Of a stretch of 64,000 nt of DNA, positions 48,473-63,909 are shown piece after piece (the first letter of the stretch is position 1; each line of letters starts with the position of its first letter). Position numbers and translations under genes: made by a program. A model generated the notes under the pieces. It did no database searches and was not told where the DNA came from. It saw only the letters and a program-made list of their open reading frames with translations. The stretch comes from Lama glama (lineage: Eukaryota), in NCBI GenBank assembly GCA_028534125.1, contig CM052840.1, forward strand, positions 1,426,001-1,490,000, written 5' to 3'.

Positions 48473-50616
48473 CCCACATGGCATTTTGGACCTGTCTTAA
48501 AAGCCTTCCCACTTTCTGCTTTGGATTATATGGTAAATTGTATATTTATCTTATTTTCCTTACTAAACTGTAAACTTGATAGCAGGGAGCTAATTCTTAG
48601 ACAGTCACCCCTCAAGATTCATCTTCTTTTTCAGATGTACTTCCTTTTCAGAAGAACTGCCTTACCCCCCCACTCCCCATCTCACCCCCAAAACACAGCC
48701 TTGGTATCCCTCTCCTGCCCACACAGTAGCACCCTGCATTTCACACATCACAGCAGTCCTTGCTCTGAGCCACATTAACATCCTGTTTTGTTGATCTGGA
48801 CCCACACAGACACACACACAGATTGTGAAGTATGTAAAGACTGGGTCAGATGCTTGTTCCTAATTGTCTTGCCAGTGAGGCACCTAGGAGGCTCAATAAT
48901 GGTTATCCCCAGAGTTCTTCACACAGCCATCACCCATAGGGCATGCCCCTCCCAATCTGGACTGGATGGTGGGGCAGGAAGGACTGAAAGGGCTCAGCTC
49001 AGCCCAGATTCCTGGGCACATCCGGGCACATGACCCAGGAATTCCCCAATATCTGGCAGCAGCCAAGTCCCTGATGTAATCAGGTTCCCTGTCTGCTATT
49101 CTCACTCTGCAAGAGATCAGGTCTCCCTTTAAGGAATTTGAGCATTGAGTTTCAGCAGTTAAGATCACTTCCGAGTCTTATGCTGTTCCTGCTCTGTGTC
49201 TGTTTGTCTGCCTCTCTTGCTTATCTGTGGTGGACAGACAGCAGCCAGGTCCATTCATCACTAAAGCCCTGTCTGGTAGTTTCTCGGAGGCCACCAGTCT
49301 GCATCTCTACTAGAACTGGAGAGATCTATTTTCTCTGAAGACTTTGGCTATCCGTGACTTGCCCTCCTAAATGGGGATTCACATTCTGGTCAAAGGAAGC
49401 TGAAATGGAATTGGGGAAGGTCCAAGAGTGCAGAAAATTTACCCTTATCCTCCCCAGCCTCCCCCAGCTCCCACCCTCCACCCCTGCCATGTCAGTTTAG
49501 CTGGGAATGGATGGAAATCACTTTCATCTTTAAATTTCACTGCACAGGCATGCCTTTGGTTCATAGGCATCTACTGAGCACCTCTTTTGTGCCTCGCAGT
49601 GGGCTCGGTGTTGGGGATACTGGGAAGAATCCATAGGAGTCTAGAGTAAGCTTGAAAGGAATTTTAGGCTCACCTGTATGATTCCTTCATCTTACTTACG
49701 AGAAAATGTTGATTCATCTGGCTAACAGTCTCAGCTTAAAAGGCCCTGTCTGCACGAAGTTGCCCCAGGCCAACCTCCTCCTCTTTGGGTTGGGGGCTCC
49801 CTCCTGTTATACACCCCAAGGCCATTCTGTTCCTTCCCCATTGTGGACACATCTTCTTCTGTCTAGGTTCTGCTTGTTTATTTCTCGCTAGACTGAGAAC
49901 TCTCTGAGGGCAGAGACCATGTCCATCCAGTCACCATCATATCCACAGGCCAGCATCCAGAGGGCACCAGTATTTGTAGAATGAATTAGTGATTGGTAAA
50001 AGGCACAGAAGTGGTTGGTGTCAGTCAGGACTAGAACTCAGGTCTCCTAACACTCAGCCCCGTGCTTGCTCTTATATTACCCATGCTTCCTATTGAGATC
50101 CTTAATCTATCTGGATGGCCTCAGCTCCCTGGGTGCCAGGAATGGATGCAGATCTCACTGGGGAAAGGCAATATCAGATCAGGGAAACTGTCATCTGGGC
50201 CTCATTCTATTTTCACAGATGACCCAGAGCCATAGGGGAGGCCATGGAGAGAAGAATGCCAAACTGGATACCACCTCCTGTGGCCTTCCAGACTTCAGGA
50301 AGAGGGGTTAGCTTCCTGCATAAGTGGGTTCTCTCCAGCCACAAAGGAGGCAAAGGGCCCCATTCTCCATCTGTCACTCACAATGGAATGGATCAAAGGA
50401 CCAGCAGAAGGAGGAAAGTGGGCAGACACTAAATACAAAATCCAGTCCTGGAGATGGTGTCTGTCTTGATCCTTAGCATGCCCTGAATACACCGCTGGAG
50501 GCACCATCCTCCCGGGGCTTCTGAATCTCAGCTCTGCCAGTTTCTCACCAGGTGTGTGGCCTTGGGCAGAATAATACCCCCTCACAGGAATGGGCTACCG
50601 TGAAGACTCAAGGGGA

Positions 50617-50699
50617 GATGGAGGGTATAGCTCACTGGCAGAGTGCATGCTTAGCATGCACGAGGTCCTGGGTTCAATCCCCAGTACCTCCATTAAAAA
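50617..50699 (+). mobile_element. Camelid SINE head (5' part of a split element)
   Basis: gagggtatagctcactggcagagtgcatgcttagcatgcacgaggtcctgggttcaatccccagtacctccattaaaa; left TSD AAGACTCAAGGGGA at 50603-50616. Confidence 0.92.
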
Positions 50700-50744
50700 A
50701 AAATAATAATAATACCTAAACATACAAATAGAAAGATAAACAAT

Positions 50745-51638
50745 ATGAGGCAGCAGAGGAATATCTCCCAGGCCAAGGCACAAGATAAAAATCCCAGAAG
50801 AAGAAATAAGTGATGAGGAGACAGGCAATTTATATGAGAAAGAGTTTAAAGTAATGATGGCGAGGATGTTCAGAGAACTCAAGAGGAGTATAAATGCACA
50901 GAATGAAGTTTTTAGCAAAGAGTTGGAAAACATAAAGAATACCCAAACAGAGTTAAAGAATAAAATCACTGAAATGAATAACACACTAGAAGGAACCAAG
51001 AACCAAGACTAAATGAGGCAGAAGAACGGATCAGTGAGCTAGAAGACAGATTAGTAGAAATCACTACTGCAGAACAGAAAAAAGTAAAAAGAATGAAAAG
51101 AAATGAGGATAGTTTAAGAGAACTCTGGGACAACATGAAGCACGCTAAGATTCGCATTATAAGGGTCCCAGAAAGAGAAGAGAGAGGGAAGGAACCTGAG
51201 AAAATGCTTTAAGAGATAATAACCAAAAACTTCCCCAGCTTGGGAAAGGAAACAGTCACCCAAATCCAGGAAGCGCTGAGTTTCACCCAGGATCAACCCA
51301 AAGAGGAACACACTGAAGCACATAGCCATCAAATTGACAAAAATTAAGGATAAGGAGAAAATATTAAAATTAGCAAGAGGAAAGTAACAAATAACATACA
51401 AGGGACTCTCATAAGGTTATCAGCTGATTTTTCAGCAGAAACTCTACAGGCCAGAAGGATGTGGCAAGATATATTTGAAGTGATGAAAGGGAAAAACCTA
51501 CAAACAAGAGTACGCTATCCAGCAAGGCTCTCATTCCAATTTGATGGAGAAATTCAAAAGCTTCACAGATAAACAAAAGCTAAAAGAATTCAGCACCACC
51601 AAACCAGCTTTACAACAAATGTTAAAGGAATTTCTCTA
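50745..51638 (+). pseudogene. Decayed full-length L1 ORF1
   Basis: ATG MRQQRN..EEISDEETGNLYEKEFKVMM..ELENIKNTQTELKNKITEMNNTLEG..RELWDNMK..LSADFSAETLQARR..YPARLS..TTKPALQQMLKEFL* with frameshifts. Confidence 0.88.
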
Positions 51639-51694
51639 GTCATCAAACCATAAGAAAAGAGAACAAAAAGAAATAAGAGAGAGAGAAAAAAAAA

Positions 51695-51990
51695 ATTGCT
51701 TTGGCAGTTCGGAGTCTTTATGATTCCATATAAATTTTGGAATTGTTTGTTCTAGTTCTGTGAAAAATGTTGTGAGTAATTTGATGGGGGTTGCATTGGA
51801 TCTGTGGATTTGGGTAATGCAGTCATTTTGATAATGTTGATTCTTCCAGTCCAGGAGCACGGGATATCTTTCCATTTCTTTGTGACATTTTCAGCTTCCT
51901 TCATCAGTGTTTTACAGTTTTTGGAGTATAGATAACTTCCTTGGTTAGGTTTATTTCTGGGTATTTTGTTCCTTTTGATGCAATGGAAAT
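51695..51990 (-). mobile_element. Inverted L1 ORF2 fragment
   Basis: Minus-strand peptide [28 protein letters not shown]. Confidence 0.88.
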
Positions 51991-52679
51991 GTGTATGCCA
52001 CTTCTAAAATTCTAGTTTTTTGAAGTGGAAAAGAAAAGTGAATGAAGGGCTGCAAATGGCAAAATTGTATTCCATTATATATATATATGCTATGCATTCA
52101 TCTATTGACGTGCACTTAGGATGCTTCCATATCTTGGCAATTATAAATAATGTTGCTATTAATAGCAAGGTATATATATATATCTTTCTGAATTAATTCT
52201 TATTTTGTGGTTGGCTTTTTTTTTCTTTTATAACTATGTTAAGTTTAAAAAGGTAAAGCTCTAAGGCTGAGAAATTAACAGAGCTTTCAATAGATGCGGA
52301 GGACCAGTGGACCAAAACCAGTGTTCAGAGCCGGGGGGTGGGCTGGAGCTGGTAAACGCTCAACCAGTGGTCAGGGAAGGGGAAAAAGCACTAATCTTTA
52401 TTTGACTTTCATATGTAACGGTTTCCTCTTGTAATCAATAGAGCAGCCACTAAAAGAATAGTGAAAGGTTATGAGACTACCAAACTGAATGAGGGAGAAA
52501 ATGCAATATTAAAAAAATAGCTAATTCAAAATATCAATAAAGGAGAGATAAACAAAGCAGGGTGGATTAAAAAAATAGCAATATGGTAGGTCTAAACCCA
52601 AATGTGTTAGTAATCCATGTAATAATAACCATATGTAGTAAAGATTAAATATAAATCAAATTCTCTAACTTAAAAACAG

Positions 52680-52835
52680 ATACAAAATACTGTATATAAA
52701 ATAGATAGACAGCAAGGTCCTCCTGTATAGCACAAGGAAGTATATTCAATATCCTGTAATAAACCATAATGGAAAACATTATAAATCAACTATACTTCAA
52801 TAAAATATATATATATAAATAAAAATTTAAAAAGC
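52680..52835 (+). mobile_element. Cetartiodactyl-type L1 3' end
   Basis: tatataaaatagat..caaggtcctcctgtatagcaca..tcaatatcctgtaataaaccataatggaaaa..aaatcaactatacttcaataaa. Confidence 0.85.
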
Positions 52836-53001
52836 TAAACTTCTAAATGTTCTTAGAAACAATGAACAGTACATGTATGTAAATTTTAAAAATATGTGCA
52901 GTATAATGTGTATATGTATTTACATGCAATACATTGTATATGTGTAGTCAAACTGTAACAATTCTACATAATAAAACTGAAAAATGAAAATAATAATAAT
53001 A

Positions 53002-53067
53002 AAAATAAGTAAACCTGATTACCTCCCCCAAAGAAATAACTTTAAGAATTTTTTTTAATTAAAAAAA
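53002..53067 (+). mobile_element. Camelid SINE tail (3' part of the split element)
   Basis: aaataagtaaacctgattacctcccccaaa matches the tail of intact copies (e.g. 60668-60692); right TSD AAGACTCAAGGGGA at 53068-53081. Confidence 0.88.
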
Positions 53068-53779
53068 AAGACTCAAGGGGAAACGTTCCTTTCTCCCTAT
53101 TACACTCCACCTAGAGGGAGGAGCAGCTATGCGTGTTCTCATTTCACTCTCAATGACGCTAAGAATGGGAATTCTGGACCTAGGGATTCTGCTCCAGGCC
53201 TTAAAAACTACGCCATACCTCATGACCTATGTGGCTCCAAAATTACAGAAAGGAAAACTTGGATGGGCAGTCATTTACAGGTTGAGGGACACAAGTTAAA
53301 TAGTAGAAATGTAATGTATTTTTTAATAAATCAATATTTCCCTTTGGCTCTCTCCATCTCCTTCCAACACTTCATAAAGTCCACCACATCTTAAGGGACC
53401 CAGTCAACCCTAGAAGCCGTCTTTGATGAAGATGTAAGAACTTCCTAGAACCGCATTTCTGGGATACAACTAAGGTTGATCTGATGGATGACTGGTGAAC
53501 TCAGAACCATGGAACAACTCTCCACCTCTCCTACTTGACTGGAGTCTGCCTCCATCCATTCCATCCCTCCTTCCTCCTTATGGTCTTCAAAAAGTGGTCA
53601 AGTGACTTTAAGGATTTTGGCATGAGAGAAGCAAATTACTCCAGAGAAATACTTTGGTGACCTCTTGTGCAGTCAGATTGTCCCCTGCTATCTGAACAGC
53701 ACAGTGCAAGGACAACAGGTAGCTCTAACCAGGACCGAGAGACTTTCAGAGACAAGAGCAGTCCCAGGGACCTTCAAAG

Positions 53780-63788: not shown

Positions 63789-63909
63789 GTGGCCATCAAG
63801 TCAATCCGGAAAGACAAAATCAAAGATGAGCAAGATCTGATGCACATTCGGCGAGAGATTGAGATTATGTCGTCACTCAATCACCCCCACATCATTGCCA
63901 TCCATGAAG
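63789..63909 (+). CDS. NUAK2: NUAK2 exon 2 (121 nt, kinase subdomains II-IV)
   Basis: cccag|GTG; [40 protein letters not shown]; G|gtacag donor. The gene continues beyond the window. Confidence 0.97.

What the first reader, a model, noticed from the sequence alone, without database searches (positions are those of the whole stretch)
50603..53081. Young camelid SINE split by a 2.27-kb TSD-flanked mosaic insert, ~1 kb upstream of NUAK2
Seen: a SINE head (50617-50699) and its tail (53002-53067) share a perfect 14-bp TSD, AAGACTCAAGGGGA (50603-50616 / 53068-53081). Between them lies 50715-52986, flanked by its own 15-bp repeat AAAATAATAATAATA (50700-50714 / 52987-53001) and with AATAAA ~15 nt before its end. 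The insert is not an ordinary L1. In order it holds a sense ORF1, an antisense ORF2 piece, an antisense 3' piece, sequence resembling much older L1M/MER remnants (~52300-52660), a sense L1 3' end and ~150 nt of unique AT-rich tail. Inference: repeats older than the lineage-specific SINE cannot have jumped into it on their own. They were probably carried in as one L1-mobilised RNA (retrocopied non-coding transcript, 3' transduction or multi-template-switch chimera). The event pushed upstream DNA ~2.5 kb away from the NUAK2 promoter.
Basis: partly seen in the sequence, partly recalled or inferred. Interest (0 to 1): 0.7.

Follow-up and report, generated by a model that had tools for sequence, protein, structure and literature searches.

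The report
Half-L1 copy in triple nested insertion
Upstream of a camelid kinase gene, a short jumping element is split by a dead copy of a multi-copy "half-LINE-1" family, which is itself split by a 560-base copy of DNA from another chromosome; these are likely three separate, ordinary retrotransposition events rather than one exotic chimera.

Summary
The coordinates and both flanking repeats are real, but the insert is not a one-off mosaic. 50715-52264 plus 52823-52986 is a 5'-truncated, dead copy of a multi-copy ORF1-only family (HAL1-type, 2.7-3.1 kb). Both ends match a resident full-length L1 at 91-92% (majority sequences); ORF2 is replaced by two inverted L1 scraps. The "unique tail" is that L1's 3' end. 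Only 52265-52822 is specific to this copy: it has one partner, on contig C2 (7.2% diverged), ends just after AATAAA, and sits between two copies of an 18-24-nt stretch that is single in 64 of 65 other loci. It looks like a separate L1-mediated retrocopy of non-coding DNA (class 1 TSIP-like). Best reading: SINE, then half-L1, then retrocopy, likely in place and at similar ages. Both outer TSDs are perfect while the innermost is decayed, so a composite built elsewhere is not excluded (about 10%). No effect on the NUAK2-like gene was shown. Earlier notes of this scan report camelid half-L1 copies on other DNA, including this genome. I found no paper naming the family, but could not check Repbase or Dfam.

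The parts
50603..50616 (+). Outer TSD, left copy (SINE insertion)
   Evidence: identical to 53068-53081
50617..50699 (+). Head of camelid tRNA-type SINE (vic-1-like; name from SINEBase passage, sequence identity to vic-1 not tested)
   Evidence: 23 copies in window and loci; 2 of 73 sites differ from majority, median copy 12.3%
50700..50714 (+). Middle TSD, left copy, in the SINE's A-rich middle, just after a TT/AAAA site
   Evidence: identical to 52987-53001; not family sequence
50715..52264 (+). 5' part of a 5'-truncated HAL1-type copy; lacks the ~1.05-kb 5' UTR
   Evidence: colinear at 80-86% with full-length copies; family continues upstream in other copies
50745..51639 (+). Dead ORF1 (majority frame 297 aa; this copy has 2 stops and 5 frameshifts)
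51692..51991 (-). Inverted piece of L1 ORF2, fixed in the family
   Evidence: 75% to L164:6224-5915; 81% majority vs majority
52055..52190 (-). Inverted piece of L1 ORF2 C-terminus, fixed in the family
   Evidence: 79% majority vs majority
52186..52264 (+). Start of the sense L1 3' end shared with the full-length L1
   Evidence: 82-87% to L164 and L173
52241..52264 (+). Inner duplication, left copy (18 nt from 52247 or 24 nt from 52241; both start at endonuclease-like sites)
   Evidence: D6; single in 64 of 65 other loci
52265..52822 (+). Copy of G000:C2:106716476-106717111: old-repeat-like DNA plus a short L1 3' end with AATAAA; 63-nt deletion relative to the donor
   Evidence: 40 of 559 sites differ; 3 of 3 candidates scored = window, C2, one 70% hit
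52823..52846 (+). Inner duplication, right copy
   Evidence: 4 of 24 (3 of 18) mismatches to left copy
52847..52986 (+). 3' tail of the HAL1-type copy = L1 3' end with AATAAA at 52970
52987..53001 (+). Middle TSD, right copy
53002..53067 (+). SINE tail
   Evidence: matches tails of other copies
53068..53081 (+). Outer TSD, right copy

Best explanation
A SINE is split by a dead, 5'-truncated copy of a multi-copy ORF1-only (half-L1, HAL1-type) family, and that copy is split by a 558-nt duplicate of a single locus on another chromosome; each layer has its own flanking duplication and likely arose by a separate L1-driven insertion at this spot, outermost first. Shown: the three layers, their duplications, the family, its full-length L1 relative and the donor. 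Inferred: (1) the SINE inserted first; (2) a half-L1 RNA, copied in trans by the enzyme of the co-resident L1 whose ends it shares, was inserted in the SINE's A-rich middle and truncated 30 nt before ORF1; (3) an RNA reading through the C2 locus and ending at the poly(A) signal of a short L1 3' end there was reverse-transcribed into the half-L1's 3' UTR. The family founder likely arose when an L1 lost ORF2 and took in two inverted scraps from a more distant L1. All layers are now inert.
For: Family: colinear copies on many contigs; shared 5' start in 16 copies, with 18-19-nt TSDs in 2 of 16 and 11-12-nt candidates in 3 more; majority ORF1 open for 297 aa in both subfamilies, no other sense frame from M over 60 aa. 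Parent: L164 and L173 are 6.1-kb L1s; L164 has RVT_1 hits and a sub-cutoff Exo_endo_phos hit. Majority 5' UTR+ORF1 91.4% identical, 3' end 92%, ORF1 272 of 297 aa. Ages overlap: L1 copies 5.4-8.9%, half-L1 copies 4.5-8.5% from their majorities. ORF1 was under mild constraint in source elements: synonymous:non-synonymous 102:427 in singletons vs 17:34 in variants shared by 5 or more of 37 copies, p=0.028. Inner piece: one partner only; the donor is not in a half-L1, has no flanking direct repeat of 6 nt or more, and keeps the 63-nt block found in 8 of 11 other such L1 ends. No close sister of the window's half-L1: nearest of 29 is 8.6% away. Reverse nesting, SINE inside half-L1, in L057. Window-type and donor-type contigs both occur in 2 of 2 DNA runs laid.
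Against: TSD decay runs the wrong way: outer 0 of 14, middle 0 of 15, inner 3 of 18 (4 of 24). Two perfect TSDs have probability 0.03-0.12 at 5.5-3.5% per lineage. The SINE (3 of 92, 95% CI 0.7-9.2%; the tail site counted by eye) looks no older than the half-L1 (5.5%). No separate poly(A) run follows the inner piece; it ends in an A-rich stretch the donor also has. Donor transcription was not shown: 0 of 2 RNA runs laid held a donor-type contig in the unique part, and no host gene was found in 145 of 785 candidate frames scanned. Evidence that the donor's flank continues an old L1 is weak (tblastn E=0.16). ORF1 constraint is modest: subfamily A vs B has only 10 synonymous and 14 non-synonymous changes, and pN/pS against the L1 is 0.40, or 0.55 with transition weighting.
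Confidence: 0.8

Rival explanations
1. The C2 piece entered a half-L1 copy at another locus; that composite was later transcribed and inserted into the young SINE as one RNA, and the source allele was lost or is unassembled.
For: Inner TSD most decayed, outer two perfect; SINE close to its majority.
Against: No second composite among 3 of 3 candidates; no close sister among 29 copies; only 32 of 920 differences are near-private (3.5%), so all three ages overlap and the TSD pattern is only mildly unlikely.
Confidence: 0.1
2. One reverse-transcription event switched from half-L1 RNA to the C2 RNA and back, recopying 18-24 nt.
For: Similar ages of the layers; A-rich sequence at the 3' junction, 1-2 nt microhomology at the 5' junction.
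Against: Needs two switches that by chance rebuild a duplication starting at an endonuclease-like site; the two copies would then be as alike as the perfect middle TSD, and they are not.
Confidence: 0.05
3. The inner piece is a DNA-repair patch copied from C2 (class 2 templated insertion), with no RNA step.
For: No spliced junction (the 63-nt deletion has no GT-AG ends); no donor transcript seen; no clearly untemplated poly(A).
Against: It has a duplication, an endonuclease-like site and ends about 20 nt after AATAAA, the class 1 features in PMC5110952.
Confidence: 0.04
4. The structure is a misassembly.
For: The assembly has 1,072,352 contigs and several with inverted duplicate copies; junction-spanning reads at the window locus were not examined.
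Against: Copy and donor differ at 40 of 559 sites; window-type contigs in 2 of 2 DNA runs from different studies and organism labels; 14 runs hold 0.63-0.68 of the words of 50300-53400.
Confidence: 0.01

Closest known systems
HAL1 (half-L1) non-autonomous retrotransposons (Smit 1999; Bao and Jurka 2010, not held; seen through passages of PMC5753468, PMC5786205, PMC4161310, PMC13756887)
   Same: ORF1 only, L1-derived, multi-copy, arose from a lineage's own L1; fits the 'bipartite, ORF1-present' class in PMC5786205.
   Different: Camelid; ORF2 is replaced by two inverted ORF2 scraps; its full-length relative is present at the same age. No paper naming it was found; a Repbase or Dfam entry may exist.
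Class 1 templated sequence insertions (Onozawa and Aplan, PMC5110952, passages)
   Same: Non-coding DNA from a distant single locus, flanking duplication, TT/AAAA-like site, end 10-30 nt after AATAAA.
   Different: Old (7.2% from donor) and not shown to be polymorphic; untemplated poly(A) not resolvable; target is another retroelement.
vic-1 SINE of camels (named in PMC3531059, passage)
   Same: Short, abundant, TSD-flanked tRNA-type SINE in a camelid-like genome.
   Different: Not aligned to the vic-1 reference, which was not available.
L1 3' transduction / orphan transduction (recalled)
   Same: Unique genomic DNA moved by L1 enzymes.
   Different: The moved DNA lies upstream of the only L1 end in the donor, and no L1 ORF1 was found in 100 kb around it.

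Membership tests
HAL1 (half-L1) | Encodes L1 ORF1 | tested here: met
   Pfam hits; 297-aa majority frame
HAL1 (half-L1) | No ORF2 in the family | tested here: met
   no sense ORF2 in 2.7-3.1-kb copies; only inverted scraps
HAL1 (half-L1) | Multiplied as a unit with shared junctions and L1-type TSDs | tested here: met
   7 full-length among 40 motif-sampled loci
HAL1 (half-L1) | ORF1 kept under selection in source elements | tested here: met
   modest: p=0.028; A-vs-B counts small; pN/pS 0.30-0.55 against the L1
HAL1 (half-L1) | Mobilised in trans by L1 ORF2p | not testable with these tools
   inferred from shared ends and overlapping ages
HAL1 (half-L1) | Identity with a named Repbase/Dfam family | not testable with these tools
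   libraries not available; no camelid HAL1 name among 6 HAL1 rows of one Repbase-annotated 190-kb table
Class 1 TSIP-type retrocopy | Single distant donor | tested here: met
Class 1 TSIP-type retrocopy | TSD of 5 nt or more at an endonuclease-like site | tested here: met
   18-24 nt, decayed
Class 1 TSIP-type retrocopy | Untemplated poly(A) 10-30 nt after AATAAA | tested here: inconclusive
   ends about 20 nt after AATAAA, inside an A-rich stretch shared with the donor
Class 1 TSIP-type retrocopy | Polymorphic in the population | tested here: inconclusive
   present in 2 of 2 DNA runs laid; contigs cannot show absence
L1 3' transduction | Source L1 directly upstream of the moved DNA | tested here: not met
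   no ORF1 similarity in C2:106652001-106752000; nearest upstream N run 17 kb away
vic-1 SINE | Sequence identity to vic-1 consensus | not tested
   only the name was seen

The most novel reading that the evidence does not exclude
An uncatalogued camelid half-L1 family of a few thousand copies kept its parent's promoter, ORF1 and 3' end, co-amplified with that parent, and in this case captured a host RNA and carried it to a new site as cargo inside a young SINE, from a source allele since lost.
Probability: 0.1. Interest if true: 0.45.

Novelty: new member of a known kind. Interest (0 to 1): 0.27.

Why it matters
The locus is most likely inert, but it is a clean three-layer time stamp for SINE, half-L1 and L1 activity in camelids and a usable lineage marker. 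The family matters more than the locus: parent L1 and ORF1-only derivative are both recoverable at the same age, so ORF1 evolution with and without ORF2 can be compared directly. Copies split by repeat annotators into sense and antisense L1 scraps would be re-read as one element.

Tried and rejected
Unique tail: rejected. One-off mosaic: rejected. Using the 906 exact hits of a 24-nt motif (control 0) as the family's copy number: rejected, because of 40 sampled loci (taken from the first listed on C1 and C2, not at random) 19 had half-L1 sequence upstream, 10 had L1 sequence and 11 neither; a few thousand half-L1 copies is a rough inference. The top 24 PF02994 loci as parent: rejected, longer alignments mostly 50-67% aa; the parent was found through the shared 3' end. 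Splicing as the cause of the 63-nt deletion: rejected, no GT-AG. A domesticated intact ORF1: 0 of 37 copies are undisrupted; L103's 301-aa frame has 3 frameshifts. Host gene at the donor: none among 145 of 785 frames. RNA evidence: one window-type contig at depth 5.4 in 1 of 2 RNA runs, which may be DNA; six RNA runs with word shares of 0.10-0.20 are not evidence. Earlier notes on this locus: none. Bao and Jurka 2010 not held.
Full report
Observation. The sequence holds the perfect 14-nt repeat at 50603-50616/53068-53081 and the perfect 15-nt repeat at 50700-50714/52987-53001. Head and tail of the SINE match other copies in the window and in fetched loci; the head differs from the majority of 22 other copies at 2 of 73 sites, the median copy at 12.3% (copies were found with this head as query). 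ORF1 fragments hit Pfam Tnp_22_trimer and Tnp_22_dsRBD. The gene downstream starts at ATG 54164 and has an AMPK-related kinase exon at 63789; the name NUAK2 is recalled. The genome has 37 large numbered contigs and this SINE, in line with a camelid (inference).

The insert is mostly a family member. Searches of the own genome with 51930-52290 and 52815-52990 each returned 40 of 40 scored hits. In other loci the alignment runs to 52264 and resumes at 52823. Of 72 loci examined, 65 span both sides and 64 of these carry one copy of the 24-mer that the window has twice (some loci are re-fetches of the same copy). Full-length copies share a 5' start about 1.05 kb before ORF1 (16 copies) and measure about 2.7-2.8 kb (short tail, as in the window) or 3.0-3.1 kb (long tail). 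TSDs of 18-19 nt are clear in 2 of 16 and 11-12-nt candidates in 3 more; 7 of 40 motif-sampled loci are full length. Majority sequences of both subfamilies have one 297-aa ORF1 and no sense ORF2. Individual copies are dead: 0 of 37 have an undisrupted ORF1, mean 4.3 disruptions, the window's copy 7. This meets the definition of HAL1 given in passages of PMC5753468, PMC13756887 and PMC5786205; PMC4161310 calls L1 the likely mobiliser (passage).

Parent and origin. A 24-nt 3' motif has 906 exact hits, control 0, but part of them belong to a second family with sense ORF2 running into the same 3' end. Two of 20 long copies of it are full-length 6.1-kb L1s (L164, L173), with RT hits and a sub-cutoff endonuclease hit in L164. 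Majority against majority, the half-L1 matches this L1 at 91.4% over 2,049 nt of 5' UTR and ORF1 and at 92% over 127 nt of the 3' end, ORF1 272 of 297 aa; the two inverted ORF2 scraps match at only 81% and 79%. I infer that the founder kept both ends of this L1 lineage and took the scraps from a more distant L1. Copies of both families lie about 5-9% from their majorities, so they were likely active together. ORF1 shows mild constraint in source elements (p=0.028; pN/pS 0.30-0.55; private changes 0.60 unweighted).

The inner piece. 52265-52822 has one strong partner, G000:C2:106716476-106717111; a search with its unique part scored 3 of 3 candidates: window, C2 and a 70% hit. Copy and donor differ at 40 of 559 sites, and the copy lacks 63 nt without splice ends. 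Direction is C2 to window: the donor is not inside a half-L1, has no flanking repeat of 6 nt or more, and keeps the block that 8 of 11 other L1 ends also have. The copy stops about 20 nt after AATAAA and is bracketed by the 18-24-nt duplication, which begins at TT/AAAA (18 nt) or TT/AAGT (24 nt). These are the class 1 TSIP features in passages of PMC5110952. The labels L1M/MER for the old part are recalled; tool support is the 70% hit and a weak EN-like match in the donor's flank (E=0.16). No source L1 or host gene was found around the donor, and donor RNA was not seen in 2 runs.

Reality and age. Two DNA runs from different studies and organism labels each hold a donor-type contig and a window-type contig with 18 substitutions and 3 gaps; 14 runs hold 0.63-0.68 of the locus words. 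The junctions at the window locus were not checked with reads. Per-lineage ages overlap: SINE 3.3% (CI 0.7-9.2), half-L1 3.5-5.5%, inner piece about 3.6%. In the Repbase table of PMC6726744 (supplementary Table 4 rows) an L1 at 97% identity is in three Camelus species but not alpaca, while L1s at 83-90% are in all four, so these layers may straddle the 16.3-Mya split cited there (passage). That is untested here.

Against the simple order. The outer and middle TSDs are perfect and the inner one is decayed; the probability of two perfect TSDs is 0.03-0.12. A composite built elsewhere would explain this, but no second composite and no close sister (nearest of 29 at 8.6%) were found. I give in-place nesting 0.8.

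Novelty. Each part is of a known kind. Five searches found no paper naming a camelid HAL1 (listings only); passages of the camelid TE survey PMC8605555 did not mention one. Bao and Jurka 2010 was not held, and Repbase, Dfam, subscription papers and bioRxiv supplements could not be seen and may name it. Earlier notes of this scan describe camelid half-L1 copies, one in this genome (unchecked AI notes, consulted after my reading was formed); none covers this locus. The core promoter-like motifs lie about 0.9 kb downstream of the insertion, and nothing here shows an effect on the gene. Verdict: new member of a known kind, interest 0.27.

Noticed in passing
L024:5990-8780 (G000:C2:~106688000-106690780, - strand): Intronless, disrupted RING-finger reading frame with poly(A) and a ~15-nt flanking repeat: a processed pseudogene (zf-C3HC4_3); resembles RNF26 (recalled). 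Its CpG-rich 5' end lies 26 kb from the donor.
   Followed up: partly
L057:3689-3829 (oriented; G000:C32): SINE inserted inside a half-L1 ORF1 with a ~13-nt duplication: the reverse nesting of the window.
   Followed up: partly
L103 (G000:C1:74287354-74291323): SINE sits at the 3' end of a half-L1 copy; its 301-aa open frame contains compensating frameshifts.
   Followed up: partly
L055, L064, L069 vs L054, L068: Subfamilies mix a longer or shorter 5' UTR with short, long or cut tails; long tails continue after an A-run, as if gained by read-through.
   Followed up: no
L160 (G000:C37:35052300-35060500): Two tandem 5' UTR+ORF1 units ahead of one L1 3' end.
   Followed up: no
L070 (G000:C22:18431731-18437931): Truncated copy only 3.5% from the subfamily majority, the least diverged seen (it is part of that majority).
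   Followed up: no
G000:C176834, C115729, C994580, C405702, C77814, C916804: Unplaced contigs hold each hit twice in inverted orientation with equal scores: probably assembly palindromes, which inflate copy counts.
   Followed up: no
L028:1946-2332 (-): Weak dUTPase-like match (E=0.008, below cutoff), possibly an old retroelement remnant.
   Followed up: no
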